DNA of 64,000 nt, taken from positions 152,894,001 to 152,958,000 of the forward strand of contig CM059431.1 in NCBI GenBank assembly GCA_030390025.1, given 5' to 3'. Positions 4,967 to 61,915 of this stretch are shown in pieces. The notes under the pieces are model-generated. The model made no database searches and was not told where the DNA came from. It was given only the letters and a program-made list of their open reading frames with translations. Origin of the DNA: Squalus acanthias. Lineage: Eukaryota. Positions within the stretch are counted from its first letter, which is position 1; each line of letters begins with the position of its first letter. The translations under genes were made by a program, and so were the position numbers.

Positions 4967-4974
4967 TTCACAAT

Positions 4975-9771: not shown

Positions 9772-11203
9772 TCTAATGGAATAGCCATATTTCAGAAAAA
9801 TACACCATGCTATGAACAGAATTCTAGTTTTCTTAAGACATAACAAACTGGGGTTAAAAATCTAAAAGCCTCAATGACAAAAGCCGTAAAAATAAAACAA
9901 AGGCTTCTGAGATACGATGAAGTGTTAACACAAAGCTTTAAACACAACGTAAGGTTTTTAAATGTTAAATGGTTATTGACACTGAGACAATGGCCTCATT
10001 CAAACAGTGGGTTGTAGGTTCCAAGGAGTCTGCAGTTTGGAACCAACACAATAGCAATGCCCAAGTAAAGTGTTAAAATATAACACTTCGAACAGGAACA
10101 GAGAATATTAAAGAATACATGTGCCTTTGATAAAAGTAACATCAAATGAAACAGGAAACACAATTATGTATATAACCAACTAAGATGGCTAGGAAAAAAA
10201 CAGCATGGTTGAAGTGGTTTTCATTTACATAGTGTAAAAGATACCTACAGAAGACTTTGAAAATATTACATCAATAGATGTACCAAGCAATCACATTGTT
10301 CATGTGTTGAACTTGGAAGACAAGGAGACGCAAAGTCTGTAATAAAATCAGTTAAGCCAATATTAAGAATTGAATGGGAGACCTTCGTAAGAATGGCATG
10401 ACATAGATACATCAGTAATAACCATATTTTAAGATAACTTTCGAAAACCTAAAGATAGAGACAGAATTGTGCAAGCTAACAGCTGAAGTAACAGTAAGAA
10501 TAGAAAGAAGTCAACAGAGGTATGGCTAGAGATAATTAGCTTACATCAGCAGAAAACTTCAAAGAATATTCCATTAAAAAAGAGAATAAAAATAGAGCTT
10601 TTCAGATAGAACGTGAGAAGTCGCTGGAAAGGCAAGCGATTCTCAACTTCAGAGGAAGGCTCTAAGTTTTTAACACTTTGAGTCTCTGCTAATCAAGGTA
10701 TTTGATTTCCGTGGTTATAATGGATTAAGAATAATTAATAATGTGGAAATGTAACGAAGTAAAGATTTTAGAATAAAAATCTCTGATAAGAAATTTAAGC
10801 AATTTGTATTTTGAACTGTTAAGGTTGCGACTGAATCAACAGGTGTTAGCAGAATGTCGGTTCTTTAATAAATTTATATATTTTTTTTGAATTGACTCAC
10901 AGAATCATTTTGTATGAACCTCGCAAACTCAATTAATGTACACACTTTTGTGAGGATATGCAGAATTCTTCTAGGTTTTCCGGACCCTCATAATGTCAGG
11001 AAGGTTACAGTTTAGTTAACCTTGTTAAAAGTGCTATCCGGAGGATGGTAACATCTTCAGGTCGTTTCTTTCCTTTAGGGAGAGGTAGTCTGACCTTTAG
11101 ACCCAATTAAGCGTCTTATAGGATTCGGCTACCGCTAACTTTAGTTGAAGGTGAACGGTCTGGGGTAGCCTGAAAAGGGCTAGGACTTGTAATTCTCCCT
11201 TCA
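9772..11203 (+). mobile_element. Solo-LTR-like element copy A (~1.43 kb)
   Basis: Degenerate 5' end TCTAATGGAATAGCC, 3' end AATTCTCCCTTCA, AATAAA at 10867, flanks CACC/CATC; homologous to six other copies. Confidence 0.75.
10867..10872 (+). terminator. Polyadenylation signal of LTR-like copy A
   Basis: AATAAA in a conserved TTTAATAAAT(C/T/A)TAT context with a T-rich tract downstream; present at the equivalent site in copies A-F (AACAAA in G). Confidence 0.55.
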
Positions 11204-13983
11204 CATCATCAGGGAACCCTTTCAATGAGAGAGTATCCCGTAATGGAAACCTTTTACAGAAGAATTCGCACCATTAGATAACCTTTTAAAGAGGGAGTCT
11301 TTCAATCAGAGAACCCTTTTAAAATGAGTCTTGCAATCAGGGACCCCTTTTAAAGAGTGAGACTTACCATCAAAGATCCCTTTTAAAGAGGGAGTCTCAC
11401 CGTAAGGGACACATTTTAAAGAGGGAGTCTCACCATCAGGGACCCCTTTTAAACGAGAGAGCTCACCTTTAGGGATCCCTTTTAATGAGGAAGTCTCACC
11501 ATCAGATACCTCTTTTAAAGATAGGGTCTCACCATCAGAGACCCCTTTTAAAGAGGGTGTATCCCATTCAGGGACCCCTTTTAAACGAGAGTGTCTCTCC
11601 ACTAGGGACCCCTTTTAAAGAGGGAGTCTCACCATCAGGGACCCCTTTTAAAGATTGAGACTCACCATCAGGGATCCCTTTATTAGAGAGAGTCTCACAC
11701 AAAGGGACCCGTTTAAAGGGAGTGTCTCACACTCAGGGATTCCTTTTAAAGAGGACATCTCACCATCAGAGGCCCTTTTAAAGAGTGAGTCTTTCTTTCT
11801 TTCAAGGTCCCCTTTTAAAGAGAGAGTCTCCACATTAGGGATCCCTTTTAAATAAGATGTCTCACCATCAGGGATCCCTTTTAAATGTGGAGTCTTTCTA
11901 TCAGGGAGTACATTTTAAAGTGAGTCTTACAATCAATGACCCCTTTTAAAGAGTGAGTCTCACCATCAGAGTCCCCGTTTAAAGAGAGGGTCTCTCCACT
12001 AGGGAACCCTTTTAACGATGGAGTTTCACCATCAGGGACCCCTTTTAAAAAGGGTGACTCACCATTAGGGACCACTTTTTAAGAGGGTGTCTAACCATCA
12101 GGGACCGCTTTTAAAGATGAAGTCTCACCATCAGCGGCCCATTTTAAAGAGAAAATCTTTCTATCAAGGACCCCTTTTAAAAAAGCGTCTTTCTATCAGG
12201 GACCCCAGAAAGAGAAAGTCTCCCCATTAGGGACACTAAGAATCTGTCTCACCTTTTGGTAGCCCTTTTTTAAGAGGAAGTTTCAGCATCAGGTACCCCT
12301 TTTAAAGAGAAAGTCTTTCTATCATAGATTCCTTTTAAAGAGAGAGTCTCCCAATTAGGTACCCCTTTTAAAAATGAGGTTAAGCATCAGAGATCCCTTT
12401 TAAAGAGAGAATTTCATCATCAGGAAGCACTTTTAAAGAGAGCCTTACCATCAGGGTCCCCTTTTACAGAGGTTCTCTCACCATCAGGGTCTCCATTTAA
12501 AGAGGGAGTCTCACCATTAGTGACCCCTTTTAAAGTGGGAGTCTCAAAATGAGAACCCCTTCTAAAGATGGGGTCCTACCATCGGGGAGCCCTTTTAAAG
12601 AGAGCATTACCATCAGGGTCCCCTTTTAAAAAGTGAGTCTCACCATCAGGGCTCCCTTTTAAAGAGGGAGTCTTTCTGTCAGGGAGCCCTGTTAAAGAAT
12701 GTCTTACCATCAGGGACCCCTTTTAAAGAGGGAATCTTACCATCAGGGACCGCTTTTACAGATTGAGTCTCAACATCAGGGACCGTTTTTCAAGAGGGAT
12801 CTTTACTTCAACGACCCCTTTTAAAGAGAGAGTCTCCCCATGAGGGATCCCTTTTAAAGAAGTAGTCTAACCATCAGGGATCCCTTTTAAAGCGGGAGTC
12901 TTTCTATCAAGGAGCCCGTTTAAAGAGGGTGACACCATCAAGAACCCTTTCAAAGAGGGAGCTTGTCTCTCACTTTTAAAATGAGTCTTACCATCAGGGA
13001 CCACTTTTAAAGAGAGCATCTTTCTATCATGTAACCCTTTTAAAGAGTGTGTCTTACCCTCGGGGAACCATTTTAAATATAGTATTTCTATCATGGACCC
13101 CTTTTAAAGAGGGCGTCTTTCTATCATGGACCCCTTTTAAAGAGGGAGTCTCACCATTAGGGACCCCTTTTTAAAGATTAAGTCTCACCATCAGTGATCC
13201 CTTTTAAAGATAAAGTCTCACACTCAGGGAACACTTTTAAAGAGGGAGTCTCACCATCAGGGACCCCTTTTAAAGTGAAACTCTCACCATCAGGGACCGC
13301 TTTTAAAGAGAGAATCTCACCTTCAGAGACACTTTTAAAGAGGGAGTCTTTCTGTCAAGTATATCTTTTAAAGTGAGATTCTCACCATCAGGAAGCCCTT
13401 TGAAAGAGAGAATCATACCGTCATAGACGCTTTTGAAGATGAAGTTTTTCTTGCAGCGAGCCCTTATAAAGGGAGTGTCTCACACTCAGGGCCCACTTTT
13501 AAAGAGGGAGTCTCACCATCAGGGACCACTTTTAAAGAGAGCATCTCACAATCAGAGACCTTTTTAAAGATGGAGTCTTTCTTTCAAGGACCCATTTCAA
13601 GAGAGGGTCTCCCCATTAGGGATCCCTTTTAAAGAAGATGTCTCACCATCAGGGACCTCTGTTAAATTTGGAGTCTTTCTTTCAGGGAGTACATTTAAAG
13701 AGGGAGACTCACCATCAGAGACCCTTTTAAATAGGGAGTCTTTCTATCAGGTGGCCCTTTTAAAGTGAGTCTTACAGTCAGCGGCCCCTTTTATAGAGTG
13801 AGTCTCACCATCAGGGACCAATTTTAAAGTGAGAGTCTTTCTATCAGGGACCCCATTTAAAGAGGACGTCTTTCTATCAGGGACCCCATAGCGAGAGTCT
13901 CCCCATTAGGGAAACATTTTAAAGAGTCAGTCTCACCATCAGGGTCCCCTTTTAAAGAGTGTGTTTCAGCATCAGGGACTCCT

Positions 13984-14514
13984 ATGTTCTGGTATATGTC
14001 TCAGTTGAGAAAGCCCTCAATGAGGGTGGCTAGAGGGGTTTCCCAGGAGGTCACACTGCAGATGTGTGTCAGGCTCCAAATTTCCAGAGCTGTGGTTATG
14101 CCTTCTAAAAGTTCCCCCAGACCTGTTACAACAAAGTCCTGCCACCTGCAATTGATGGCTGATCAAATCTCATATTTAAAGCTTGAGCTGCAGCTGAGAG
14201 TCAGCAATCCACTTGTGCTCCCGCCAGTTTTCACTGGAGTGTTTCCCATCAGGCGTGCTTCACGTGGTAAAAGGGTTAAAGTGCCTAAAATGGTTCAAAA
14301 TGGCATTACTGAGCCTATTTAGGGATAGTTAAGAGCGTTAATGGCCTCTCGCGCCTCATGGAGGCGGGACGGAGTCGAGAATCCCGCCACCCATTTTGTC
14401 AAAATTGCGTGGAGGCGTGGTGGATTCGGGATGGGGTCGGGACCACTGAATCTGCTACTTTAACCCCCCACAGGCCTCCAAACACGACTCCACGGGTCAT
14501 TCAAAATCCAGCCC
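13984..14514 (-). mobile_element. Probable terminal fragment of a Harbinger/PIF-type DNA transposon
   Basis: Non-satellite ~530 bp ending AAAATCCAGCCC (GGGCTGGATTTT on minus, TIR-like) with a GC-rich subterminal region; lies ~440 bp from the Harbinger transposase. Confidence 0.5.
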
Positions 14515-14952
14515 ATAGTCTCCCCATTAAGGACCCCTTTTAAAGAGGCTCACCATCAGGGACCACTTTTAAAAAGGGTGGTTAAGCATCATGGACTCTT
14601 TTTAAAGAGGGTGTCATTCAATCAGGGATCTCTTTTAAAGAGATAGTCTCCCCAATAGGGAAACCTTTTAAAGAGACTCACTATCAGAGACCCTTTTAAA
14701 GAGAGAGACTCACCATCACGGATCCCTTTTAAAGAGAGAGACTCACCGTCACAGACCTTTTAAAGATGGAGTCTTTCTATCAAGGACAACTTTTAAAGAG
14801 GGTGTCTCCCCATTAGGGACCCCTTTTAAATGGGGAGTCTCACTATCAAGGTCTCCTTTTAAAGAGGAAGTCTCACCATCAGTGGCCCCTTTTAAAGAAG
14901 GGAGTGTTAACATAAGGACCTCCTTTAAAGAGGGAGTCGCCCCATCAGGGAC

Positions 14953-15738
14953 CAGCGCATATAATGCCGTCGGCGCAGGAGATACCCCCCAACCAGGGTC
15001 TACAGACAGAGGGTCAGCTTCCTCAACATGTCTGAGCAGCATTGCCAAAGGCGGCTCCGACTTTCGCGAGAGGTAGTGGGTGACATATGCGCAATGCTGA
15101 AACAAGATCTGGAGCCCAGAGGACCAGCTGGACGCCCCTTCCCAGTGGCCATCAAAGTGACCACTGCACTCAACTTTTTTGCCTCAGCCTCATTCCAGGG
15201 ATCAGCGGCATCTACCAGGCGCCGCACACACCTGCATCACGCAGGTAAACGATGCCGACTTTGCCATCGCGCACAATCAGATCTATTTCAACAAGGATTA
15301 AACAAGTGTCACGGCGCGTGTGGTTGGATTAGCTAATCTGGCAGGCTTTCCAAGGGTGCAGGGCCTCTTTGACTGCACACATGTGGCCCGTAAGGCACCC
15401 CATCGCAATCCAGGTATTTTTGTCAATTGCAAGGGCTTCCATTCCCTCAACGTTCAGCTGGTGTGTGACCACAACAAGGAAGTTCTGCATGTCTGTGCCA
15501 AGTACCCTGGCAATTGCCATGACTCCTTCATACTGCGCCAGTCTAGTGTGCCTCCGCTATTCAGTCAGCTGGAACAACTTCACGGATGGCTACTTGGAGA
15601 CAAGGGCCACCCCCTGAGGACGTGGTCAATCTCGCCGTTGAGGAGCTCATCCAACGCAGCGGAGGAGAGCTACAACTCCAGCCACATTTCCACCAGATCC
15701 ATAATCGAGCAAACCATCGGTATGCTGAAGATGCGCTT
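14953..15738 (+). pseudogene. Harbinger/PIF (HARBI1-like, DDE_Tnp_4) transposase, N-terminal/central part, frameshifted
   Basis: [75 protein letters not shown]. Confidence 0.9.
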
Positions 15739-18136
15739 GGAATGAGTGACCATAACAAGGTTGAATTCCAAATCCAATTAGAGGGTGAGAAGGTTGGTTC
15801 TCAAAAAAGCATACTGAGCTTGAATAAAGGAGACTATGATGGCATGAGAGCAGAATTGATTAAAGTGGACTGGGAAAATAGATTAAAGGGTAAGACGGTA
15901 CATGAGCAGTGGTGATTATTCAAGGAGTTATTTTACAACTTTCAAAATAAATATATTCCACTGATGAAAAAAGGGTGTAAAAGAAATGACCGCCATCCAT
16001 TGCTAAATAAAGAAATTAAAGAAAGTATCCAACTAAAAACAAGGACATATAAGGTAGCCAAAGTTAGTGGGAGGATAAAAGATTGGGAAGTCTTCAAAAG
16101 ACAACAAAAAGTAACTAAAGGATTGATTAAGAAAGGGAAAATAGACTATGAAAATAAATTAGCAAAAAATATAAAAACAGAAAGCAAGAGTTTCTATAGT
16201 TATATAAAAAGAAAAAGGGTGGTTAAGGCAAACGTAGGTCCCTTAGAGGATGAGACCGGGAAATTAATGATGGGAAACTTGGAGATGGCAAAAATGCTGA
16301 ACAAATATTTTGTTTCAGTCTTTACGGTAGAGGACACTAAGAATATCCCAACACTGGACAAACAGGGGGCTCTAGTGGGGGAGGAGCTAAATACGATTAA
16401 AATCACTAAGGAATTGGTACTCAGTAAGATAATGGGTCTCAAGGCGGATAAATCCCCTGGACCTGATGGCTTACATCCTAGGGTTTTGAGGGAAGTGGCA
16501 GTAGGAATTGTGGATGCTTTGGTAATAATTTTCCAAAACTCCCTGAACTCAGCAAAGGTCCCGGCAGATTGGAAAACTGTTAATGTAACACTCTTATTTA
16601 AAAAGGGTTGTAGGCAGAATGCTGGAAATTATAGACCAGTTATCCTAACATCTGTGGTGGGTAAAATGTTGGAGTCTTATTAAGGAGACAGTAACGGAAC
16701 ATTTAGATAAACATAATTTAATAAGACAAAGTCAGCATGGCTTTATGAAGGGGAAGTCATGTCTGAAAATTTGCTCGAGATCTTTGAGGACATAACGTAC
16801 AGGGTGGATAAAGGGGAACCAGTGGATGTAGTGTATTTAGACTTCCAGAAGGCATTCGACAAGGTGCCACATAAAAGATTATTACTCAAGATAAAATTCA
16901 CTGGATTGGGGGTTAAATTCTGGCATGGGTGGAGGATTGGTTATCTAACAGGAAGCAGAGAGTTGGGATAAATGGTTCATTCTCGGACTGGCAACCAGTA
17001 GCCAGTGGTGTTCCGCAGGGGTCGGTGCTCGGTCCCCAACTCTTTACAATCTATATTAACGATTTGGAGGAGGGGACCGAGTGTAACATATCAAAGTTTG
17101 CAGATGATACAAAGATGGGAGGGAAAGTAGAGAGTGAAGAGGACATAAAAAACCTACAAGGGGATATAGACAGGCTGGGTGAGTGGTCAGAGATTTGGCA
17201 GATGCAATACAATATTGTAAAATGTGAGGTTATGCACTTTGGCAGGAAAAATCAGAGAGCAAGTTATTATCTTAATGGCGAGAAACTGGAAAGTACTGCA
17301 GTACAAAGGGATCTGGGGGTCTTGGTGCAAGAAAATCAAAAAGTTAGTATGCAGGTGCAGCAGGTGATCAAGAAAGCCAATGGAATGTTGGCTTTTATTG
17401 CTAGGGGGATAGAATATAAAAACAGGGAGGTATTGCTGTAGTTGTATAGGGTATTGGTGAGACCGCACCTGGAATACTGCATACAGTTTTGGTGTCCATA
17501 CTTAAGAAAAGACATACTTGCTCTCGAGGCAGTACAAAGAAGGTTCACTCGGTTAATTCCGGGGATGAGGGGGTGGACATACGAGGAGAGGTTGAGTAGA
17601 TTGGGACTCTACTCATTGGAGTTCAGAAGAATGAGAGGCGATCTTATTGAAACATATAAGATTGTGAAGGGGCTTGATCGGGTGGACGCGGTGAGGATGT
17701 TCCCAATGATGGGTGAAACTAGAACTAGGGGACATAATCTTAGAATAAGGGGCTCCTCTTTCAAAACTGAGATGAGGAGAAACTTTTTCACTCAGAGGGT
17801 AGTGGGTCTGTGGAATTTGCTAGCCCAGGAAGCTGTGGAAGCTACTTCATTAAATAAATTTAAAACAGAAATAGACAGTTTCCTAGAAGTAAAGGGAATC
17901 AGGGGTTACGGGGAGCGGGCTGGAAATTGGACATGAGTTTGAGTTCGGATCGGTCAAGGCCCTCTGGTTGGCGGAGCGGGCCCAGGGGCCGAGTGGCCTG
18001 GTCCTGCTCCAACTTCTTGTGTTCTTTAGAGTTGAGGTTGGATCAGATCAGCCATGATCTCATTGAATGGCGGAGCAGGCTCGAGGGGCCGATTGTTCTA
18101 CTCCTGCTCCTATTTCTTATGTTCTTATGTTCTTAT
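15739..18136 (+). mobile_element. 5'-truncated CR1 LINE (second subfamily) inserted in the Harbinger transposase
   Basis: ORF2 remnants from SDHN through RT (KSPGPDG, LDFQKAFD, GVPQG, FADD) with stops and frameshifts; tail (TTCTTATG)n. Confidence 0.93.
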
Positions 18137-18429
18137 GCTTGGATAGATCAGGTGGAGCCCTGCAATACTCAGCAGCCAGAGACTCCAGAATCGTCGTGGT
18201 TTGCTGTGCTCTTCACAACATGGCACAGTGTCATGGCTTACAGATGCCAGAGGAGCAACTGGCTCCTCACATAGCCTCTTCAGAGGAGGAGGAGGAGACG
18301 CAGGAGAAGGAGGAGGAGGAGAGAGAGAACGGACAAGTTGCAGAGGCCCCTCAACCAGTGGCAGCATTACGCGAGACCATAGCTGTCCGGAATGCAAGGA
18401 ACGCACTCATCTTGGCCAGATTTGCTTAG
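18137..18429 (+). pseudogene. Harbinger transposase C-terminal part
   Basis: CLDRSGGALQYS...IVVVCCALHNMA, acidic tract, ARNALILARFA*; continues LKMR at 15738. AATAAA at ~18648. Confidence 0.88.
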
Positions 18430-18655
18430 CCTAGACAAGAAAGCACTTTTGCCTCGCAGCTTCTTACCAGAGCTACGACGATGGCCCATTCCCAGCGGAT
18501 CCCTAACAATGTGACCACAATACTGACAATTGCAAGTTATCCTAAGGCCTCATTGTGGAAGTCCCATTAGCGAAATGACAGATGCCACAACTGCAGCTGT
18601 AGCCATCAGAGATTTTAATTAAAATTTAGACCTGATGGCTTTTTAACAATAAACA

Positions 18656-18892
18656 TCAAAATACACCCAAGTGTCTACCCTTGTGACTACTTGTGCAGTT
18701 TCTTTCTCTGACGTGTGCTCCTACGTGGTGCTTCCACTGTGGCTTCAGCAGAAGTGAAGGCCCCCTGCTCACGTTGTTGCTGCTCCTGTCTCGACTCCTT
18801 TGGTGGGCGTCCTCTGGGGTTGCGATACTTCGAGGGCTCGGCAACAGTCTGCTGCTCCTGCGGCTGGGCAGGGGTTGAGACGCCAATCTCAC
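18656..18892 (-). pseudogene. Possible C-terminal remnant of the convergent second (DNA-binding) Harbinger ORF
   Basis: Basic, P/S/R-rich frame converging on the transposase. PIF/Harbinger elements carry a second Myb/SANT gene, but no domain motif is visible here. Confidence 0.3.
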
Positions 18893-19725
18893 TTGGGTGC
18901 TCTCTTTAAAATGGACATTGATACTGAAACAGCCTCTTTAAAAGGGGTCCCTGATTCTGACACTCCCTCTTTAAAAGTTACCTCTAATGGTATGACGCAC
19001 TCTTTTAAAGTGGGGAGACTCTCACATTAAAAGGGGTCCCTTATAGAAAGACTCCATCTTTAAAAGGGGTCCCTGATAGAAAGTCTCTCTCTTTAAAAGG
19101 GGCCCCTGATGGTGAGACCCTCTCTTTAAAAGCGGTCGCTGATGCTGAAGCACACTCTTTAAAATGTGTCCCTAATTGTGAGACTACCTTTTAAAAGGGG
19201 TCCCTGATGTCGAGAATCTCACTTTAAAAGAGGTCCCTGATGGTGAGACTCCCTCTTTAAAAGGTCTCCCTGATCGAAGACTCCTATTTTAAAACGGTCT
19301 CTGATGGTGAGACTCCCTCTTTGAAAGGGCTCACTGATAGAAGGACTTCCTCTTTAATAGGGTCTCTGATGGTTAGACACTCTCTTTTACAGGTGACCCT
19401 GATGGTGAGACACACCCTTTAAAAGGGGTTACTGCTGGAGTTATTCTCTCATTAATAGGCATCCCTGACTAGGTTACTCCCTCTTTAAAGTGTTCCCTGA
19501 TGGGGAGACTCCCTCTTTAAAAGATATCGCTGATAGTGAGACTTCCTCCTTAAAAGGGTCCCGGATGGTGAGACTCGCTCTTTAAAAGGTGTCCCTAATG
19601 GAAGACGCTAGCTTTGAAATGGGACCCAGACAGAAGACTCTCTCTTTAAATGGGTCCCCTGAGGGTGAGAGTTCCTCTTTAACTTGAATCATGATGGTAA
19701 GACTCACTCTATTAAAGGGATCCCC

Positions 19726-21175
19726 TGAAGGGATAATTGCCAGTCGTAGCACTTTTCGGGCTAACCCAGATAAGGCGTATTGCCCAGACGTTAACCTTAA
19801 GCTAAAGTTAGAGATAGCCGAATCCTAGAGAGGGTTAATTGTGTCTAAAGGTTCAGACTATCTCTCCCTAAAGGAAATGAATGACTTGAAGATGTTACCA
19901 TCCTCCAGATAGCACTTTTAATATGTTTATCTAGACCGAAACCTTCCGGATATTATGAGGGTCCGGAAAAAACCCCAGAATTCTGCTATTCCTCACAAAA
20001 AAGCGATAAGAAATTGAGTTCTCGAGTTTGATACAGAAGTACTCTGTGAGACAATTCTAAAAATATATAGATTTATTAAACAACCGACATGTACTTAACA
20101 GTTGGTGATTTCAATCGCAACTTAACAGTTCAAAATTCAAATGGCTTACATTTCTTATCAGAGATCCTTATTCTCAAATCTTAACTTCGTTACATTTCCA
20201 AACTTCGTACATATTTATAATCCAGAATATCCATCAAAATCAAATAAAAGTAACTTTTGATCCCCGAGGCTCACAGGGATAAAAAGTTACAGAGCCTGCC
20301 TCTGAAGTTGAGAATCGCTTTGCCCCTTCCAGCGACTTCTGACTTCCTATCTGAAGCTCTATATTTTATACCATTTTTTGCAGTGGTATATTCTTTGAAG
20401 ATTTCTGCTAATATAGCTAATTATCTCCATTCATCTTTCTGTTGACTTCTTTCTATTCTTACTGTCAATTCAGCTGCTAACTTGAAGAATTCTGTCTTAC
20501 CTATAGGTGTTCGAAGTTATCATACAAAATGGTTATGACAGATGTATCAATTTGATGCCATTCTTACGAAGCTCTCCTATTGAATTCTTAAATTACTTTA
20601 ACAGCTTGTATTACAGACTTCGCATCTCCTTGTGTTCCAATTTCAACACATAAACCATGTGATTACTTGATGCATCTATTGATGTAATATTTACCAAGTC
20701 CTCTGTTTTCACCTTTTACAATATGTAAATCAAAAACACTTCAATCGATTACTTGATTGTTTCCCCAGCCATCTAGTTGGTTATATTACAAAATTATGTT
20801 TCCTGTCTTTCATTTGATGTTACATTTACAAAAGCACATGTTTTTTTAATGTTCTGTGTTTCTGTTCGAAGTGTTAGTTTATAACACTTTAAACTGGGTA
20901 TAACTATTGTGTTGTTTCCGAACTGCAGACTTCTTGGAACCTACAATCCTCTGTTTCAATGAGGCCATTGTCTCATTATCAATAACAAATTCATATTTCA
21001 TAAGCTTGTATGATGTTTCCAGGTTTGTGACTCATCTTATCTCAGAAGCCTATATTTACAGCTTTGTGTCATTCAGGCTTTTAGATTTTGAAACCCAGTT
21101 TGTCATATTTTAAGAAAATCAGAATTCTGTTCATAGGATGGTGCATTATTCTGAAATATGTCTCATTCCTTTACA
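19726..21175 (-). mobile_element. Solo-LTR-like element copy B (~1.45 kb)
   Basis: Minus strand starts TGTAAAGGAA and ends AATTATCCCTTCA; TATAAAA at 20370-20364; AATAAA at 20077-20072; flanks CCCC/CACT (monomer CCCT). Confidence 0.78.
20364..20370 (-). promoter_or_regulatory. TATA box of LTR-like copy B
   Basis: GGTATAAAATATAG on minus. Equivalent site is TATAAATA in copy E (35199-35192) and TATAATA in F, ~290 bp upstream of the AATAAA. Confidence 0.55.
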
Positions 21176-49200: not shown

Positions 49201-49291
49201 CCACCGCCTCGCCGCTGTCGCTCCACACAGGTCCGCCGCCTTTGAGTCAGCTAGTGCCAAACTCGCAGTTTAACACTCTGTTCCGATCTGC
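46266..49291 (-). mobile_element. Internally deleted CR1 LINE retaining 5'UTR, ORF1 N-terminus and 3' tail
   Basis: 76-bp 5' monomers; ORF1 remnant 48515-48024 (CSSCTMW...GNSIVRG); deletions near 48025 (esterase + APE) and ~47378 (RT N-part); tail at 46266-46360. Confidence 0.92.
48632..49243 (-). repeat. 76-bp GC-rich tandem monomers (~8 copies) in the CR1 5'UTR
   Basis: GCCTACCTGGTC-type motif at 48641, 48717, 48793... (period 76). Confidence 0.9.
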
Positions 49292-50252: not shown

Positions 50253-50564
50253 GCAAGAGTGGCGAGGGAACAGAGGCGGCGATGAGCGATACTTAAGCTG
50301 AGCCCCGAGGCGGCTTACAAATCCAGGTTCCGGGAGAAGGAAGCAAAAAATATTCGTAGTGTGACGTCACCAAAGCGCAGGTAAGTGATTGGTTGGTGAG
50401 TGTTTTCATTCTCAATTTTTCTAAACTAAATTGTTGTGTTTTCTACGGTCTCTATGTGCAGCGGGGACTCCTGTTAAGTAAGGGCTCTTGAGTATATACT
50501 TAATTCCAGTGCAATTGCTGGGATCCATTGCATTTTAATTAATTAATTAATTAAAGGGTAGTTC

Positions 50565-51515: not shown

Positions 51516-54496
51516 AATGGCAGTGGGTTGGGAACCTGAGCAGGGAGACAGAGGAAAGGGAAACAAGGATAAAAGCAAAAGATAGGAAGGCGAAAAACAA
51601 AAGTTGCAGTCAGAGAAAACAACGGTTTAATCAAACATGGCCACAGTAAATAGTAATTCTAATAGTTCTAAGAGCGTTAAAAAAACAAGCCTGAAGGCTT
51701 TGTGTCTTAATGCAAGGAGCATTCGGAAAAGTTGGACGAATTAGCTGCGTAAATAGAGGAAAACGAACAGGATTTGATTGGGATTACCAAAACGTGGCTC
51801 CAGGGTGTCCAAGGCTGGGAACATAATATCCAGGGGTACTCAATATTCAGGAAAGATAGGCAAAAAGGAAAGGGAGGTGGGGTAGCATTGCTGGTTAAAG
51901 AGGGGATTAACACAATTTAAAGGAATGTTATTAGCTCTGATGATGTGGAATCTGTGTGGGTTGAACTGAGAATTAACAAGGGGCAGAAAACTTTAGTAGG
52001 AGTGATATATAGACCACCAAACAGTAATGCGGAGATTCGGGATGGCATTAAAAGGGAAATTAGAGAAGCGTGCAATAAGGGCACAGCAGTCATCATGGGT
52101 GACTTTAATCTACATAGAGATTCGGCTAGCCAAATTAGTAACAATACTATGGAGGAGGAATTCCTGGAGTGTTTACGGGATGGTTTCCTGGACTAATATG
52201 TCGAGAAACCAAACAGAGATCAGTCCATCTTAGACTGGGTTATATGCAATGAGAAGGGATTAATTAGCAATCTTGTTGTGCGAGGCCCCTTGGGTCGGAG
52301 CGATCATAATATGATAGAATTCTTCATTAGGATGGAGAGTGAAGTATTTGACTCAGAGACTAGGGTCCTGAATTTAAATAAAGGAAACCACGATGGTATG
52401 AGGTGCGAGTTGGGGAGGACTGATTGGGGAATGTCACTCAAAGGGTTGACGGTGGATAGGCAATGGCAAACATTCAAAGACCGCATGGACGAACTACAGA
52501 ATTTGTTCATCCCAGTTTGGCATAAGAATAAAACAAAAAGGGGGACTCAACCATGGCTAACAAGGGAAATTAGGGATAACATAAGATCCAAGGAGAGGGC
52601 ATATAAATTGGCCAGAAAAGTAGTAACCCTGTGGATTGGGAGCAGTTTAAGATTCAACAAAGGAGGACAAAGGGATTAATTAAGAAGGGGAAAATAGAAA
52701 ACGAGAGTGAGCTTGCAGGGAACATAAAAACTGACTGTAAAAGCTTTTATACATATATGTGAAGAGAAAAAGATTAGTGAAATCAAGCATAGGTCCGTTG
52801 CAGTCAGAATCAGGGGAACTTATAATGGGGAACAAATAAATGTCAGAACAATTAAATACATATTTTGGTTCTGTCTTCACAACGGAGGACACAAATAATC
52901 TCCCAGAGATGTCGAGGAACATAGGGCCTGATGAAAGGGAGAAACTGAAAGAAATCAGTATTTGTAGGGAAATGGTGTTCGGGAAACTGAAGGGATCAAA
53001 GGCCGATAAATCCCCAGGGCCTGATAATCTACATCCTAAGCTACTTAAGGAAGTGGCCCTAGAAATAGTAGATGCATTTCTGATCATCTTCCAACATTCG
53101 ATGAAATCTAGAACAGTACCCATGGATTGGAGGGTAGCTAATGTTTCCCCACTATTCAAAAAGGGTGGTAGAGAGAAAACGAGGAATTACAGACCGGTAA
53201 GCCTGACATCGGTAGTGGGGAAAATGCTAGAGTCCGTTATAAAAGATGTAATAGCTGAGCACTTGAAAAACAGTGACAGGATCGGACAAAGTCAACATGG
53301 ATTTACAAAAGGTAAATCATGCTTGAATAATCTACTGGAATTTTTTGAGGATGTAACTGGCAAAATAGATAAGGGAGAACCAGTGGATGTGTTGTATTTG
53401 GACTTTCAAAAGGCTTTTGATAAGGTCCCGCATAAGAGATTAGCGTGTAAATTTAAGGCACATCGGATTGGGGGCAATGTATTGACTTGGATAGAGAACT
53501 GGTTGGCAGACAGAAAGCAAAGAGTTGCAATAAACGGGTCTTTTTGCGAGTGGCAGGCAGTGACTAGTGGGGTACCGCAGTGATTGGTCCTTGGACCCAG
53601 CTATTCACAATATATATTAATGATCTCGACAAGGGAACGAGATGTAATATCTCCAAGTTTGCAGATGACACAAAACTGGGTGGGCGTGTGTGCTGCGAGG
53701 AGGATGCCGAGAAACTCCAGGATGATTTGGACAGGTTGGGTGATTGGGCAGAAGCGTGGCAGATGCAATATAACGTCGATAAATGCGAGGTTATCCACTT
53801 TGGTGTCAAAAACAGATTGCAGATTATTATATGAATGGCAATAGATTGGGAGAAGGGGAAGTGCAACGAGACCTGGGTGTCCTTGTGCACCAGTCGCTGA
53901 AGGTAAGCATGCAGGTGCAGCAGGCGGTTAAGAAGGCAAATGGTATGTTGGCCTTCATAGCGAGAGGGTTTGAGTACAGGAACAAGGATGTCTCGCTGCA
54001 GTTGTACAGGGCCTTGGTGAGACCACACCTTGAGAACTGTGTGCAGTTTTGGTCGCCTTATCTGAGGAAGGATGTTCTTACCGTGGAAGGAGTTCAGCGA
54101 AGATTCACTAGGCTGATACCTGGGATGGCAGGAATGACGTATGAAGAGAGATTGGGTCGATTGTGCTTATACTCGCTCGAGTTTAGAAGAATGAGATGGG
54201 ATTTCATTGAAACTTATAAATTTCTGACAGGACAGGACAAACTAGATGCAGGAAGGATGTTCCCGATGATCGGGGAGTCCAGAAACAGGGGTCAGAGTCT
54301 AAGGATAAGGGGTAAGCCAATTAGGACAGAAATGAGGAGGAATTTCGTCACCCAGAAAGTGGTGAACCGGTGGAATTCTCTGCCACAGAAGGCAGTAGAG
54401 GCCAATTCATTAAATAGATTCAAGAAGGAGTTGGATATATTTCTTAAGGCTAAAGGGATCAAGGGATATGGGGAGAAAGCAGGGACAGGGTACTGA
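51516..54496 (+). pseudogene. CR1 ORF2 (APE endonuclease + reverse transcriptase), multiple stops and frameshifts
   Basis: Fragments 51945-52196, 52278-52679, 52840-53583, 53580-53834, 53783-54496. Confidence 0.92.
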
Positions 54497-55894
54497 ATTT
54501 GGATGATCAGCCATGATCGCATTGAATGGCGGAGCAGGCTAGAGAGGCCGAATGGCCTACTCCTGCTCCTATCTTCTATGATTCTATGATTCTATAAAAG
54601 GGATCCCTGATGTTGAGACGCCCTCTTTAAATGGGGTCCCTGATGGTGAGACTCTCTCCATAAAAGCTGTCCCTAATAGGAAGATTATCTTTCAAAGGTT
54701 TCCCTGAGAAAAGACTCCATCTTGAAAATGTGTTCCTGACGGGTATACTCCCTCTTCAAAAGAGGCCACTGAAGGTGAGACTATGTTTAAAAAGGGTCTC
54801 TGATGCTGAAACTCCTACTGTAAAAGGAGTCCCTGTTGGTGAGAATCCCTTCTTAAAGGGGTCCTTGATGGCGTGACTCTCTCTTTAAAAGGGCTCCCTG
54901 ATAGAAAGACGCCCTCTTTAAAAGGGGTCCCTGATAGAATGACTCTCTGTTTTAAAGCGGTCCTTGTTAGAAAGACTCTCTCTTTAAAAGGGGTGCCTGA
55001 TGATGAAACTGCCTCTTTAAAAGGGATCTCTAAAGGTGAGACTCCCTCTTTAAAAGTGTCCCTGATGGTGAGGCTCCCTCTTTAAAAGGGTTCCCTGATG
55101 GTGAGGCTCCCTCTTTAAAAGGGTTCCCTGATGGTGAGACTCTCTCGTTAAAAGGGGTCCCCGATGGAAAGCCTATGTCTTTAAAAAGGATCCCTGATGC
55201 TGAAACTCCCTCTGTAAAAGGTGTCCCTGATGTTCTGACACCCTATTTAAAAGGGTCCCTGATGATGAGACTCTCTCATTAAAATTGGTGCCTGATAGAA
55301 AAACTCCCTCTTTAAAAGTGGTCCTTGATAGACAGACTTTCTCTTTAAAAGGGGTTCCTGATAGAAAGATTCTCTCATTTAAAGGTGTCGTGGAGGGTGA
55401 GATTTCCTCTTTAAAAGTGCTCCCTGATAGAAAAACTCCATCTTTATTAAGGGTCCCTGACGGGTATACACCCACTTAAAAAGTGGCCCCTGATGGTCAG
55501 ACTCTCTCTTTAAAAAGGATCCCTGATGCTGAAACTGTCTTTGTAAAAGGGGTCCCTGATGATGAGACTCCCTCCTTAAAGGGGTCCTTGATGTCGTGAC
55601 TCTCTCTTTAAAAGAACCCCCTGATAGAAAGACTCCCTCTTTAAAAGGGTCTCTGATGAAGAGACACCTTCTTTAAAAGGACTCCCTGATATAAAAGCTC
55701 CCTCTTTAAAATGGATCCCAGATGGTAAGACTCACTATTTAAATGGGAACCCTGATGGTGAGACTCACTCTTTAAATGGGCTCCATGATAGAAAGACTCC
55801 CTCTTAAAAAGGGTCTCTGACGGTGTACTCTCTCTTTAAAAGCAATCCCTGATGGTGTGACACTCTATATAAAATGGGTCTCTGATGGTGAGAC

Positions 55895-58800
55895 TGAAGG
55901 GATAATTACTAGTCCTAGCCCTTTTCGGGATACCCCAGATCAGGCGTATTCCTCAGACGTTCACCTTCAAATAAAGTTAGATATAGCCGAATCCTAGTGA
56001 TGCTTAATTGGGTCTGAAGGTCCAGACTATCTCTCCCTAAAGGAAAGGAGAGACCTGAAGATGTTACCGATTCAGGATTGCACTTTTAATAAGTTTAACT
56101 AGATTGTAACTTTCCGGAAATTATGAGGGTCCGGAAAATCCCCAGAATTCTGCAACACCTCAATGAAGAATGTGCCCAGAAATTGAGCGCGAGTTGGATA
56201 CAGAAGTACTCTGAGACAATTCTAAAAATATATAGATTTATTAAAGAACCGACATGTAGTTAACAGCTTATGAGTCAATCGCAACTTTAAAAATACAAAT
56301 AGCTTACATTTCTTATCAGAGATCCTTATTCTCAAAACTTAACTTCGTGCAATAAGGGCACAGCAGCTTCCATGTGTGACTTTAATCTACATATAGATTG
56401 GGCTAACCAAATTAGTAACAATACTGTGGAGGAGGAATTCCTAGAGTGTATACGGGATGGTTTCCTGGGACAATATGTCGTGGAACCAACTAGAGATCAG
56501 GCCATCTTAGACTGGGTATTATGTAATGAGAAAGGATTAATTAGCAATCTAGTTGTGCGAGGCCACTTGGGGAGGAGCGATCATAATATGATAAAATTCT
56601 TCATTAAAATGAAGATTGAAGTAGTTGACTCAGAGACTAGGGTCCTGAATTTAAATAAATTAAACTACGATGGTATGAGGCACGAGTTGGCTAGGATGGC
56701 TTGGGTAACCTTACTTAACGTGTTGACGGTGGATAGGCAATGGCAAACATTTAAAGATCGCATGGATGAACTACAGAATTTGCTTCATCGCTGTTTGGCA
56801 TAAAAACAAAACAAAAAATGTGACTCAACCATGGCTAACAAGGGAAATTAAGGATAGCATAAGATCGAAGGAGAGGACATATAATTTGGCCAGAAAAAGC
56901 AGAAAACCTGAGGATTGGGAGCAGTTTAGGATTCAGCAAAGGAGGACAAAGGGATAAATTGAGAGTGGGAAAATAGATTATGAGAGTAAACTTGCAGGGA
57001 ACATAAAAAAAGAGTGCAAAAGCATCGATAGATATGTGAAGAGAACAAGATTGGTGAAGTCAAGCGTAGGTCCCTTGCAGTCAGAATCAGGGGAATTTAT
57101 AATGGGGAACAAAGAAATGGCAGACCAATTAAATACATACTCTGATTCTGTCTTCAAAAAGGAGTACACAAATAACCTCCCAGAGATTTCGGGAAACATA
57201 GGTTCTAAAAAGAGGGAGGAATTGAATGAAATCAGTATTTGCAGAAATGGTGTTAGGGAAATTGATGGGACTGAAGGCCTATAAATCCCCAGGGCCTGAT
57301 AATCTTTATCCTAGGGTACTTAAGGAAGTGGCCCTAGAAATAGTGGATGCATTGCTGGTCATCTTCCAAAAATTTATAGACTCTGGAACAGTTCCCATGA
57401 ATTGGAGGATAGCTAAAGGTGGTAGCGTGAAAACGGGGAATTATAGACCGGTAAGTCTGACATCGGTATTGGGGAAAATGCTAGACTGCTTTATAAAAGA
57501 TGGAATAGCAGAGCACTTGGAAAACAGAGACAGGATCGGAAAAAGTCAACATGGATTTACAAAAGATAAATCATGCTTGACTAATCTACTGGAATTTTTT
57601 GAGGATGTTACTGGTAGAATAGATAAGGGAGAAACAGTGGATGTGGTGTCTTTGGACTTTCAGAAGGCTTTTGATAAGGTCCCGCATAATAGATTAGCGT
57701 GCAAAGTTAAAGCACACGGGATTGGGGGGTAAGGTACTGTCTTGGATAGAGAACTGGTTGGCAGACAGGAAGCAAAGACTTGGAATAAACAAGTATTTTT
57801 CTGAGTGGCAGGCAGTGTCTAGTGGGGAACCGCAGGGATCGTTGCTAGGACCCCAGCTATTCACAATATATATAAATGATCTAGACGAGGGAACTAGATG
57901 TAATATCTCCAAGTCTGCAGACGACACAAAGCTGGGTGGGCGTGCGTGATGTGAGGAGGATGCAGAGAAACTCCAGTATGATTTTGACAGGTTGGGTGAT
58001 TCGGCAGCTGCATGGCAAATGCAGGATAATGTGGATAAATGCGAGGTTATCCACTTCGGTGGCAAAAACAGGAAGGCAGATTATTATCTGAACGGAAATA
58101 GATTGGGAAAAGGGAATGTGCAACGAGACCTGGGTGTCCTTTTGCACCAGTCGCTGAAGGTAAGCATGCAAGTGCAGCAGGCGTTTAAGAAGGCAAATGG
58201 TATTTTGGCCTTCATAGCGAGAGGATTCGAGTACAGGAGCAAGGATGTCTTGCTGCAGTTGTACAGGGCCTTGGTGAGACAACACCTTGAGTATTGTGTG
58301 CAGTTTTGTTCAACTTATCTGATGAAGGATGTTCTTGCCATGGAGAGAGTGCAGCGAAGATTCACCAGACTGATACCTGGGTTGGCAGGAATGACGTATG
58401 AGGAGAGATTGGGTCGATTAGGCTTATATCGCTAGAGTTTAAATATATTCAAGAAGGAGTTAGATATATTTCTTAAGGCTAAAGGGATCAAGGGCTATGG
58501 GGAGACAGCAGGGACAGAGTACTGAATTTGAATGATCAGCCATGATCTTATTAAATGGCGGAACAGGCTCGAGGGGCCGAATGGCCTACTCCTTCTCCTA
58601 TCTTCTATGTTTCCATGTTTCTACATTTCCACTCTTCTACTTATTCTTAATCCAGAATATCCACCAAAATCAAATAAAAGTACCTTTTGATTCCCGAGAC
58701 TCAAAGAGTTAAAAACTTACAGAGCCTACCTCTGAAGTTGAGAATCGCTTTGCCCCTTCCAGCGACTTCTAACTTTCTATCTGAAAGCTCTATGTATTAT

Positions 58801-59607
58801 ACTCTTTTTGCAGTGGACTATTATTTGATGATTCCTGCTGATGTAAGCTAATTATCTTCAGTCTTATCTCTGTTGACTTCTTTCAATTCTTACTGTTAGT
58901 TCAGCTGTTAACTTGCAGAATTCTGTCTCTACCTTTAGGTGTTCATGTCTTATCATAAAATGTTTTGACAGTAGTTTTTTAATTTGATGCCATTCTTGCG
59001 AAGGTCCTATTGAATTCTTAAATTACTTTAACTGCTTGTATTACAGACTTCTCGTCTCCTTGTGTTCCAAGTTCAACACATAAACAATGTGATTGCTTGG
59101 TAGATCTATTGATGTAATATTTACAAAGTCCACTGTTTGTACCTTTTACTATATGTAAACCAAAAATACTTCAACCGAGCACATAATTATTTCCCCAGCC
59201 ATCTTAGTTGGTTGTTTTACAAACTTATTTTTCCTGTCTTTCATTTGATGTTACTTTTACAAAGACACGTGTTTTTTTAATTGTCTGTGTTTCTGTTCGA
59301 ACTGTTGGTTTTTAAAACTTTAAACTGGGTATAGCTATTGTGATGGTTCCAAAGTGCAGTCTCCTTGAAACCTACAACCCTCTGTTTCAATGAAACCATT
59401 GTCTCAGTGTTTACACCCAATTTCCATTTCAAAAGCTTGTATGGTGTTTACAGCTTTGTGTGCTCATCTTATCTCAGAAGACTGTATTTACAGCTGTCTC
59501 TCGTTGAGGGTTTTAGATTTTTAAACACAGTTTGTCATATTTCAATAAAGGCTGAATTCTGTTCATAGGATGGTGTATTTTTCTGAAATAAGGCTCTTTC
59601 CTTTAGA
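55895..59607 (-). mobile_element. Solo-LTR-like copy F (~1.44 kb net) split by a CR1 insertion
   Basis: AGAC|TGAAGGGATAATT at 55895; element sequence stops at 56348 and resumes at 58622; ends TTCCTTTAGA|AGAC. Confidence 0.8.
56349..58621 (+). mobile_element. 5'-truncated degenerate CR1 LINE nested in LTR-like copy F
   Basis: ORF2 remnants from late APE to RT, internal deletion at ~58440, CR1 tail. Confidence 0.93.
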
Positions 59608-60383
59608 AGACTTCCTCTTTAAAAGGGATCCCTAATAGGGAGACTCTCTTGTTAAAAGGGATCCCTGATGGTTAGTCTTCCTCTTTAAAAAGTTTCTGAC
59701 GTTGAGACTCTCTCTTTAAGAGCGATCCCTGATGGTGTGACTTTCTCTTTAAAGGATGTCCCTGATAGTGAGAATCCCTCTTTAAAAGTGGTCCCTGATG
59801 GTGAGACTCACTCTTTAAAAGGGGTAATCATGGTGTGACTCGCTCTTTAAAAGGGGTCCCTGGTGGAGAGATTCTCTGAATAAAAGGGGTCCCTGAAGGG
59901 GATACACCCTCTTCAAAAGGGGTCCCTGAAGGGGATACACCCTCTTCAAAAGGGGCCCCTGATGGCGAGACCCTCTCTTCAAAAGGGGCACCTGATGGCG
60001 AGACCACCTCTTTAAAAGGGGTCCCTGATGGTGAGCCTCTTCAAAAGGAGTCTCTAATGGGGAGACTCTCTCTTTAAAAGGGGTCCCTGATAGAAAGGCG
60101 CCCTCTTTAAATGGGGTCCCTGATAGAAAGACTGTCTTTAAAAAGAGGCCCCGAGAGTAAGACGCCCTCTTTAAAATGTGTCTCTTATAGAAAGACCCCC
60201 TGTTTAAAAGAGGTCCCTGATTGTGAGACTCCCTCTTTAAAGGGGTCCCTGATGGTGAGACTCCTTCTTTTAAAGTGGTCCCTGATGCTGAGACTTCCTC
60301 TTTAAAAGGGGCCCCTGATGGTGAGACACATTCTTTAAAAGGGATCCCTGATAGAAAGACTCTCTCTTTAAAAGGGGTCACTG

Positions 60384-61915
60384 TGTGAAGGAAATAGCCA
60401 TATTTCAAGAAATATATCATCCTATAAACAGATGTGATAATATTAAAACATGACAAACTGGGGTTAAAAATCTAAAAGCCTCAACGACACAAGCCGTAAA
60501 ACAGAAAGACATGCTTCTGAGATAAAGATCAGTTGTTAAAAAAGTTTTAAACATCACAAGCTTTGAAATGGGAAATGTTTGTAAATACAAGACATGGCCC
60601 TGTTGAAACAGCAGGCTGGAGGTTCCTCTGTGTCTGAACATTGAACCAATACAATGGAATGACCCAAGTAAAGTGTAAAAATCCAACACTTCGAAGAAGT
60701 GCACAGAACATTAAAAAACCAAGTGCCTTTGAAAAAATGACATCAATTAAAATAAATACCTGCCATAAAATAGTTTTATGTTAAACTTAGAAACAGGAGT
60801 CATAGTTCTTAATATAACCAATTGAAGTAAATAAGAAATGCAAAGGCACCCTAGATGAAGTGTTTTTGAATTACAAATTGTAAAATGTACCTACAGAGAG
60901 ACTTTGTAGATGTTACATCAATAGATGACATCAAGCAATTGCATTGTTTATGTGTTAAACTTAGAACATAAGGAGACAGGAGTCTGTGTTTCTAACAGCA
61001 GAGGTGATTTAGAAATTCAATAGAAAGACTTCCTAAGAATGGCATCAAATAGATAAATCGATAATAATCAGTTAGAGTAGTGTTAGAATTGAATGGAGAA
61101 CCTTCGATAAGAATCACATCAAATAAATACGACTGTCACATTGTTATTTTATGATGGTTTTTGGAACACCTAACGTTAGAGACACAAGGCTGGTTGCAAC
61201 AGTTGCAACGACAGTAAGAATAGAAAACAATTCAATAGAGTATCACTAGAGACAATTAGCTTACATCAGCAGAATACTTCAAAGAAAATACCACTAAGAG
61301 CTTTTCAGATGAAAAGTCTGAATTCGCTGGAAGGGCAAGCGTTTGTCAACTTCACAGGCAGGCTCTGTAAGTTTACAACTCTGAGTCTCGGGTAATCAAA
61401 GTATTTGATTTTGGTGGATATTCTGGATTAAGAAATAAGTAGAAGTGTGGAAATGTAACAAAGTTATGATTTGAGAATAAGAATCTCTGATAAGAAATGT
61501 AAGCTATTTGTATTTTGAACGTTTAAAGTTGCAATTGCCATAACAGATGTTAACTAAATGTCAGTTTCTTTAACAAATCTATATATTTTTAGAATTGTCA
61601 CGCAGAGCTTTTCTGTATAAACTCGAAAACTAAATTTCTGTACACTCAAAGGTTTTGCAGAATTCTGGTAGGGATTCCGGAACCTCATAAGATGAGAAAG
61701 GTTACAGCCTAGTTCAACTTGGTAAAAGTGCTTTCCAGAAGACAGTAACATCTGCACGTCGTCCCTTTCCTTTAGGGAAAGATAGTCTGACCTTTAGACC
61801 CAATTAAGCGTCTTATAGAATTCGGCTCTTTAACTTTAGTTGAAGGTGAACGTCTGGGGAATACGCCTGATCTGGGGTAGTCCGAAAAGGGCAAGGACTT
61901 GTAATTATCTCTTTA
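60384..61915 (+). mobile_element. Solo-LTR-like copy G (~1.53 kb), opposite orientation relative to the satellite
   Basis: ACTG|TGTGAAGGAAATAGCC...AATTATCTCTTTA|CCTG: 4-bp TSD with one mismatch. Confidence 0.78.

What the first reader, a model, noticed from the sequence alone, without database searches (positions are those of the whole stretch)
9772..61915. Unannotated solo-LTR-like family (7 copies) repeatedly inserted into the 33-bp satellite
Seen: seven homologous AT-rich non-coding blocks (9772-11203, 19726-21175, 24567-25658, 31101-32170, 34557-35657, 55895-59607 split, 60384-61915). Consensus ends are TGTGAAGGA... and ...ATCCCTTCA. Flanks are 4-bp duplications: perfect AGAC/AGAC in E and F, and mismatched CACC/CATC, CCCC/CACT and ACTG/CCTG. 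A TATA box precedes a conserved AATAAA by ~290 bp, and the end follows ~340 bp later. Known: TG...CA ends, short TSDs and U3-R-U5 order define LTRs; solo LTRs arise by LTR-LTR recombination. Inference: an LTR retroelement or endogenous retrovirus colonised this satellite in at least four independent events (four TSD positions, both orientations). No gag/pol or PBS is present here.
Basis: partly seen in the sequence, partly recalled or inferred. Interest (0 to 1): 0.8.

Follow-up and report, generated by a model that had tools for sequence, protein, structure and literature searches.

The report
Old solo LTRs in a satellite
Seven related 1.1-1.5 kb non-coding inserts in a 33-base satellite are likely the leftover end-repeats (solo LTRs) of a probably foamy-virus-like endogenous retrovirus; this is an ordinary kind of repeat, and its one oddity is that three likely separate insertions hit the same base of the satellite unit.

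Summary
Confirmed: seven homologous non-coding blocks lie in a 33-bp satellite. All 5 copies that keep both ends have a 4-bp duplication fixed by the satellite register. The layout is that of an LTR: length varies only upstream of the TATA box (U3 interior 338-802 bp), while R (276-286) and U5 (312-331) stay constant. A GTAAGT donor lies about +50, before AATAAA (intact in 4 of 7), and the ends are asymmetric; both features are foamy-like. There are no real TIRs, so a Ginger or Sola element is unlikely. D and E are one insertion duplicated. That leaves probably six insertions, three (C, D/E, F) at one base and orientation (P about 0.005-0.009, post hoc; 0.15-0.20 if C is not independent). Satellite targeting is not shown: six CR1 copies and a Harbinger also sit here, and the family is abundant and diverse in sequencing runs. 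No genome was held and no PBS, PPT or pol was found, so the family assignment is inferred. The scan already noted a foamy-like hot spot in a 33-bp satellite 474 kb away in this genome (e1-7939369, unchecked).

The parts
9772..11203 (+). Copy A, full-length solo-LTR-like element (1432 bp); TSD CACC/CATC at unit positions 6-9; starts TC, ends CA
19726..21175 (-). Copy B, full-length (1450 bp); TG...CA; TSD CCCC/CACT at unit positions 32-2; TATA 20370, AATAAA 20077
24567..25658 (-). Copy C (1092 bp), U5 end deleted, internal U3 duplication; remaining junction at unit position 10 (AGAC)
31101..32170 (-). Copy D (1070 bp), about 30 bp of U5 end lost; tandem duplicate of E (94% identical, shared flanks)
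34557..35657 (-). Copy E, full-length (1101 bp); TG...CA; TSD AGAC/AGAC at unit positions 10-13; TATA 35199, GTAAGT 35119, AATAAA 34910
58622..59607 (-). Copy F, U3/R-side piece; AGAC junction at unit position 10; starts TC
55895..56348 (-). Copy F, R/U5-side piece; ends CA; AGAC TSD
56349..58621 (+). 5'-truncated CR1-type LINE piece inserted into copy F
   Evidence: RVT_1 hit; tblastn
60384..61915 (+). Copy G, full-length (1532 bp), opposite orientation to the satellite compared with the other copies; TSD ACTG/CCTG at unit positions 33-3; TATA region deleted; ends TA
4968..64000 (.). Host 33-bp satellite, about 32.9 kb in several arrays with strand flips; monomers 82% identical to the TRF unit on average
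29200..36300 (.). Approximate span of the tandem duplication (offset 3.3-3.7 kb) that produced D and E
   Evidence: borders approximate

Best explanation
These are seven related non-coding inserts with 4-bp target duplications that are likely old solo LTRs of an abundant, probably foamy-like endogenous retrovirus, left by probably six separate integrations into a satellite array that collects many kinds of mobile DNA. Shown: seven copies, 4-bp duplications, the U3-R-U5 layout and one later tandem duplication (D/E). Inferred: (1) a DDE integrase with 4-bp stagger inserted full proviruses; (2) LTR-LTR recombination removed the internal genes; (3) deletions (C, D), a CR1 insertion (F) and point decay followed; (4) the reuse of the AGAC position by C, D/E and F most likely comes from ordinary local integrase preference (target sequence and perhaps nucleosome phasing) meeting hundreds of near-identical units, not from homing to the satellite.
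For: Register overlap is exactly 4 bp in 5 of 5 two-ended copies. Length varies only upstream of TATA: U3 interior 338-802 bp; R 276-286 bp in 6 unsplit copies; U5 312-331 bp in 5 intact copies. Mean identity is 0.70 in the U3 interior against 0.81 in R and 0.79 in U5. In E the order is TATA, GTAAGT 80 nt later (about +50 if transcription starts about 30 nt after TATA; that start is my inference), then AATAAA. This order arises in 0.44% of 5000 shuffles of E. The donor is intact in D, E, F and G. A donor inside R upstream of the poly(A) signal is described as unique to foamy viruses (PMC3694450, passages). 4-nt TSDs and long LTRs mark fish foamy-like ERVs (PMC5210030, passages); published LTRs are 960-974 and 1498 nt (PMC5512871 supplement passages). 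Ends are asymmetric: a short inverted repeat with two extra bases at the U3 end. In foamy viruses only the U5 end is processed (PMC2615609 section 3). All 4 distinct sites obey PFV's avoidance of T at 0 and A at +3 (PMC2615609 section 13; chance 0.09). The tree separates C/D/E (support 100) from A/B/F/G, so F and D/E cannot be one insertion. C and F flanks share 1-6 of 47-61 variant letters with D/E on the right, against a background of 6%, whereas D/E share 19 of 46. The family is large and diverse: 7271 contigs laid in run X1 (including satellite-flank contigs), most under 95% alike. Other mobile elements are in the same array.
Against: No paired LTR, PBS, PPT or pol was found anywhere: no genome, empty metagenome, viral and prokaryote scans, and no informative loose end shown (723 rows hidden). 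The full TATA-donor-AATAAA pattern holds in 1 of 6 unsplit copies by strict regex, and the donor was spotted post hoc (a donor anywhere in R occurs in 7.7% of shuffles). The predicted R (about 280 nt) is longer than PFV's 193. PFV favours a central YR step (PMC4005685 passages), but 0 of 4 sites have one on the satellite unit. Gammaretroviruses also give 4-bp TSDs. A and F both start TC rather than TG. A triple hit at P 0.005-0.009 is more than the simple sequence rule that I modelled explains.
Confidence: 0.62

Rival explanations
1. Solo LTRs of another LTR element with 4-bp TSDs (class I gamma/epsilon-like ERV or a Gypsy clade); the foamy-like details are chance.
For: 4-bp TSDs are also made by gammaretroviruses. 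There is no pol to place the family. Central YR is absent at 4 of 4 sites. Earlier scan notes list Gypsy and class I families in this genome (unchecked).
Against: The donor lies in R before AATAAA, intact in 4 of 7 copies, which PMC3694450 calls unique to foamy viruses. Ends are asymmetric. The size matches foamy-like ERV LTRs.
Confidence: 0.2
2. The element homes to this satellite: an integrase or Gag tether brings it to the array, and a fixed position in the unit is used.
For: LTRs make up 9117 of 64000 bases. About six insertions lie in 32.9 kb of satellite. Three share one base and orientation (P 0.0045 uniform, 0.0087 under the PFV rule). All six fall within 12 of 33 start positions (P 0.03).
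Against: Four different positions and both orientations are used. Six CR1 copies and a Harbinger also lie here. The window was chosen for this pattern. If C is an old duplicate of D/E, the coincidence drops to P 0.15-0.20. The family is abundant in whole-genome runs, and nothing shows it confined to the satellite.
Confidence: 0.1
3. Non-autonomous DNA transposon (Ginger-, Sola- or piggyBac-like) with 4-bp TSDs.
For: 4-bp TSDs, a short inverted terminal motif, no coding capacity, and no internal body found.
Against: Terminal complementarity covers only about 9 bases, with a 2-base offset, and falls to background beyond that (8-17 of 40 matches at any offset). TSDs are GC-containing and variable, whereas Sola1 MITEs use AWWT/AWDT and Ginger2 prefers TATA (PMC3845634 passages). 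The polarised U3-R-U5 layout has no counterpart in a MITE (established knowledge, recalled).
Confidence: 0.05
4. All copies stem from one or two insertions amplified with the satellite as a higher-order unit.
For: D/E is such a duplication; C, D/E and F share a junction.
Against: Four distinct TSD positions and two orientations; F is closer to B (86%) than to E (70-82%) although it shares E's site; flanks of C and F are at background.
Confidence: 0.03

Closest known systems
Foamy-like endogenous retroviruses (FLERVs) of fish, amphibians and sharks (PMC5210030: passages; PMC5512871: passages and supplement passages)
   Same: 4-bp TSDs, long LTRs (960-1498 nt published; 1101-1532 for intact copies here), TG start, solo LTRs, copies multiplied by segmental duplication.
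   Different: No pol, PBS or PPT here to prove membership. 'Satellite' does not occur in the main text of PMC5210030. Two 11-nt motifs of this family were absent from the two PMC5512871 supplement files held as text.
Prototype foamy virus LTR and integrase (PMC3694450 passages; PMC2615609 passages and sections 3 and 13; PMC4005685 passages; PMC6744463 passages)
   Same: Donor in R upstream of the poly(A) signal, asymmetric ends, 4-bp duplication, no T at 0 and no A at +3 of the target.
   Different: Predicted R is about 280 nt, not 193; no central YR at the 4 sites; no sequence comparison with PFV was made.
ERV-Spuma.0-Sca of the small-spotted catshark (PMC10699275: passages and supplement table rows)
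   Same: A spuma-like ERV of a cartilaginous fish with long LTRs.
   Different: Its annotated LTRs are 866-869 nt. Four 11-nt motifs (two motifs, both strands) had 0 hits in the two supplement files; I did not see whether its sequence is held there as searchable text, so this neither links nor separates the two.
Ginger2 and Sola1 non-autonomous elements (PMC3845634 passages)
   Same: 4-bp TSD, no coding capacity.
   Different: They have TIRs (28-36 bp for Sola1_NA in the table seen) and AT-rich targets; neither is present here.

Membership tests
Solo LTR of an LTR retroelement | TG...CA termini | tested here: met
   TG start in 5 of 7, CA end in 4 of 5 retained ends, both in B and E
Solo LTR of an LTR retroelement | Short fixed-length TSD around a single repeat | tested here: met
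   4-bp register overlap in 5 of 5 two-ended copies
Solo LTR of an LTR retroelement | U3-R-U5 order (TATA before poly(A) signal), variable U3 | tested here: met
   motifs by sequence only, canonical TATA intact in 2 of 7
Solo LTR of an LTR retroelement | The same repeat occurs in pairs around PBS-gag-pol-PPT elsewhere | not testable with these tools
   No genome; collection scans gave nothing homologous; laid contigs showed no such junction
Foamy-like ERV (FLERV) | RT/Pol groups with spumaviruses | not testable with these tools
   No internal sequence linked to these repeats
Foamy-like ERV (FLERV) | 4-nt TSD and long LTR | tested here: met
   not exclusive to the family
Foamy-like ERV (FLERV) | Major splice donor inside R, upstream of the poly(A) signal | tested here: met
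   GTAAGT intact in D, E, F, G and altered in A, B, C; sequence only, use as a donor not shown; feature
Foamy-like ERV (FLERV) | Asymmetric end processing; GGGTG at the PPT:LTR border | tested here: inconclusive
   Two extra bases outside the inverted motif at the U3 end fit; the PPT side is absent in solo LTRs
Foamy-like ERV (FLERV) | tRNA-Lys/Asn/Thr PBS | not testable with these tools
   Satellite follows every intact U5 end
Foamy-like ERV (FLERV) | PFV-type local target bias (a tendency, not a defining rule) | tested here: inconclusive
   No T at 0 and no A at +3 in 4 of 4 sites (chance 0.09); central YR in 0 of 4
Non-autonomous Ginger2/Sola1 DNA transposon | Terminal inverted repeats | tested here: not met
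   About 9 offset bases only
Non-autonomous Ginger2/Sola1 DNA transposon | AT-rich 4-bp target (TATA, AWWT) | tested here: not met
   Targets GGTG, CCCT, CCTG, AGAC
Satellite-targeting retroelement | Genome-wide enrichment in one satellite | not testable with these tools
   No genome; contig depth is no copy number
Satellite-targeting retroelement | Fixed insertion position in the unit | tested here: inconclusive
   3 of 6 probable events at position 10; three others elsewhere

The most novel reading that the evidence does not exclude
A foamy-like retrovirus lineage was repeatedly steered into this 33-bp satellite and to one base of its unit, because the phased A/T tracts of the repeat set nucleosomes in one rotational frame that the integrase reads (PFV intasomes strongly prefer SHL 3.5 of a nucleosome, PMC6744463 passages), or because a viral protein tethers to the satellite's chromatin. 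This would be a vertebrate retrovirus with a satellite safe harbour, read out as a natural footprint of nucleosome phasing.
Probability: 0.12. Interest if true: 0.65.

Novelty: new member of a known kind. Interest (0 to 1): 0.3.

Why it matters
As it stands, little: solo LTRs piled up in gene-poor repeat arrays are ordinary. Two points have modest value. First, the R region keeps a splice donor ahead of the poly(A) signal. If the family is foamy-like, the U1-type poly(A) control described for mammalian foamy viruses may be very old. Second, hundreds of near-identical 33-bp units make a natural assay of integrase target choice, and three probable independent hits at one base can be tested against the genome-wide target logo. 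True satellite homing by a vertebrate retrovirus would interest specialists, but it is not shown here.

Tried and rejected
No genome was held, so no search of relatives was possible. Collection scans: viral contigs gave 4 loci for an 18-mer, rejected as chance because only 17-40-nt matches around the seed aligned; a second viral scan gave 0; metagenome contigs gave 0 and 0; genome contigs gave 0. Rfam 0, ARAGORN 0. Laying 4 runs showed no PBS or PPT. The loose ends shown at both junctions are uninterrupted satellite, 723 rows were hidden, and the joints that skip the element are most simply satellite-only contigs, so I do not read them as empty alleles. One contig of organism B crosses the satellite-LTR junction with only 27 aligned letters on the satellite side, below the tool's 31-letter rule, and is not counted. 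Run X16 is only guessed to be RNA, so no expression claim is made. Depth was not turned into a copy number. Earlier-finding look-ups by sequence, near (11), words (37) and relatives (63) were empty. Paper searches with no paper holding all terms: elasmobranch + tandem repeat + satellite + 33 bp; retrotransposon + satellite monomer + insertion site + same position + integrase. Searches listed no shark satellite-LTR paper (listings only); most subscription journals are not in the library. The satellite as a hidden 11-codon protein repeat was rejected: variation by position mod 3 is flat (0.177, 0.187, 0.180). The ESM Atlas did not place the host: a CR1 RT piece gave only Eukaryota, with few members labelled. 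'Cartilaginous fish' rests on earlier scan notes and my recall of shark CR1 sequences.
Full report
Setting. The window is eukaryotic repeat DNA. About 32.9 kb is a 33-bp satellite in several arrays with strand flips. It is interrupted by six CR1-type LINE copies (esterase ORF1, endonuclease, RT), a Harbinger-type DDE_Tnp_4 piece, three GC-rich minisatellites and the seven blocks of the finding. No genome was held. That the host is a cartilaginous fish comes from earlier scan notes on the same genome (unchecked) and from my recall of shark CR1; the Atlas did not confirm it.

Observation. All seven blocks exist as stated and are homologous: 66-87% pairwise, D/E 94%. Two motifs each occur in 6 of 7 copies and never in 100 shuffles. 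No other fragment lies in the window. Aligning the flanks to the satellite unit fixes the duplication independently of sequence match: the register overlaps by exactly 4 bp in A, B, E, F and G, the 5 copies with both ends. The targets on the unit are GGTG (position 6, A), CCCT (32, B), CCTG (33, G, opposite orientation) and AGAC (10, E and F; also the surviving junction of C and D). Four of 20 TSD positions differ between sides, so the insertions are old. C and D lost U5 ends by deletion, and F is split cleanly by a CR1 piece. TG starts 5 of 7 copies and CA ends 4 of 5; A and F both start TC, which I cannot explain. No piece has a stop-free frame above 97 aa.

What the element is. The layout is polar. 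Using E's coordinates as a frame, the first 120 bases are conserved (0.79) and the U3 interior is variable in sequence (0.70) and length (338-802 bp, with an internal duplication in C). The stretch from the inferred start to just past AATAAA is 276-286 bp in 6 unsplit copies (0.81), and the remainder is 312-331 bp in 5 intact copies (0.79). This is how LTRs vary (established knowledge). With GC-containing, variable TSDs this rules against Ginger2 or Sola1 elements as described in PMC3845634 (passages).

Why foamy-like. (a) A GTAAGT donor lies 80 nt after the TATA in E, about +50, and upstream of AATAAA; it is intact in D, E, F and G and altered in A, B and C. PMC3694450 (passages) describes a donor in R upstream of the poly(A) signal as unique to foamy viruses. 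The ordered triple arises in 0.44% of 5000 shuffles of E and a donor anywhere in R in 7.7%. I noticed the donor post hoc, and only E passes the strict pattern (1 of 6 unsplit copies). (b) Foamy viruses process only the U5 end (PMC2615609 section 3; PMC5210030 passages), which would fit the two-base asymmetry; this step is inference. (c) Fish foamy-like ERVs have 4-nt TSDs and long LTRs, but gammaretroviruses share the TSD length. (d) All 4 sites obey PFV's avoidance of T at 0 and A at +3 (chance 0.09), but none has the central YR step that PFV favours. The predicted R is longer than PFV's 193 nt. I put LTR at about 0.92 and foamy-like, given LTR, at about 0.75. Membership is not proven because no internal sequence could be linked: collection scans were empty or chance, and the laid contigs showed no PBS or PPT.

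Number of events. D and E are a tandem duplication: their right flanks share 19 of 46 variant letters against a background of 6% (138 random pairs, maximum 21%), and matching continues at an offset of 3.3-3.7 kb. Trees of natural pieces put C, D and E together (support 100 on 556 columns; 84 on 215), apart from A, B, F and G. F shares E's site but is closer to B, so F and D/E are independent. C's right flank shares 1-2 of 55-59 variants with D/E and its U3 differs in structure, so C is probably independent. At 23% divergence an old duplication with turned-over flanks cannot be excluded, and C has only one junction. Hence at least five events, probably six.

Position bias. With six events, three at one position and orientation has P 0.0045 under uniform use of 66 cells and 0.0087 under the PFV T/A rule. 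With five events, two coinciding has P 0.15-0.20. All sites start within 12 of 33 positions, away from the A/T tract (P 0.03 for six, 0.075 for five). These tests are post hoc on a selected window. I could not check that it is the same family, satellite or position; it is a lead, and it shaped my wording. A possible extra cause is nucleosome phasing: the unit is about 3.1 helical turns with one A/T tract, and PFV intasomes prefer SHL 3.5 (PMC6744463 passages). That is untested.

Enrichment. LTR DNA is 9117 of 64000 bases, which is dense, but six CR1 copies, a Harbinger and a second repeat sit in the same array, so it behaves as a sink. In public runs the family is large and diverse. In X1, 7271 contigs laid on copy E plus 47-48 bases of flank on each side (satellite contigs included): 916 at 99% or more, 1550 at 95-99, 2514 at 90-95 and 2291 under 90. 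It is also present in X5, X6 (a second organism label) and X16 (4 of 21 listed runs laid). At the 40 best-supported positions shown, most of the depth carries a letter other than E's, so E is an old or minor variant. Depth is not a copy number, so no enrichment figure is given.

Literature. Searches were seen as listings; two returned nothing. I saw passages of PMC5210030, PMC5512871, PMC3694450, PMC4005685, PMC11054761 (nothing used), PMC10699275, PMC3845634 and PMC6744463; sections 3 and 13 and passages of PMC2615609; and supplement hits of PMC5512871 and PMC10699275. I found no description of this satellite or this LTR, but Dfam, Repbase, subscription journals and bioRxiv supplements could not be searched, and unread supplement parts of PMC10699275 may bear on family identity.

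Verdict. A real, old family of solo LTRs, probably foamy-like: a new member of a known kind. What remains is a modest same-base hot spot, of a kind the scan already noted nearby. Interest 0.3.

Noticed in passing
window 9772 and 59607: Copies A and F, independent insertions, both start TC rather than TG at the U3 end (TCTAA), while B starts TGTAA; either parallel decay or a variant terminus in the source population, odd because integrase needs the terminal CA.
   Followed up: no
   Followed up: no
window 1625-3826 (-): A CR1 copy is rearranged so that esterase ORF1 runs in frame into the RT half of ORF2 (733-aa stop-free frame), with the endonuclease segment displaced to 692-1624.
   Followed up: partly
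window 13984-18900: Harbinger-type pieces (DDE_Tnp_4 at 15302-15745) split by satellite and by a CR1; the satellite changes strand across this block; further strand flips at about 7572 and 8402.
   Followed up: partly
window 27087-27990: A second, unrelated 33-bp GC-rich tandem repeat (27 copies, 86% matches) is inserted in the satellite at unit positions 9-12, the same zone as the AGAC hot spot.
   Followed up: partly
window 39613, 46268, 54592: CR1 3' tails join the satellite with apparent microhomology; two of three join near unit positions 2-9, one near 20.
   Followed up: partly
satellite unit, positions 12-32: The unit holds an imperfect palindrome centred on TTTAAA; positions 20-25 are the most conserved (4-9% variation, against up to 46% elsewhere).
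   Followed up: partly
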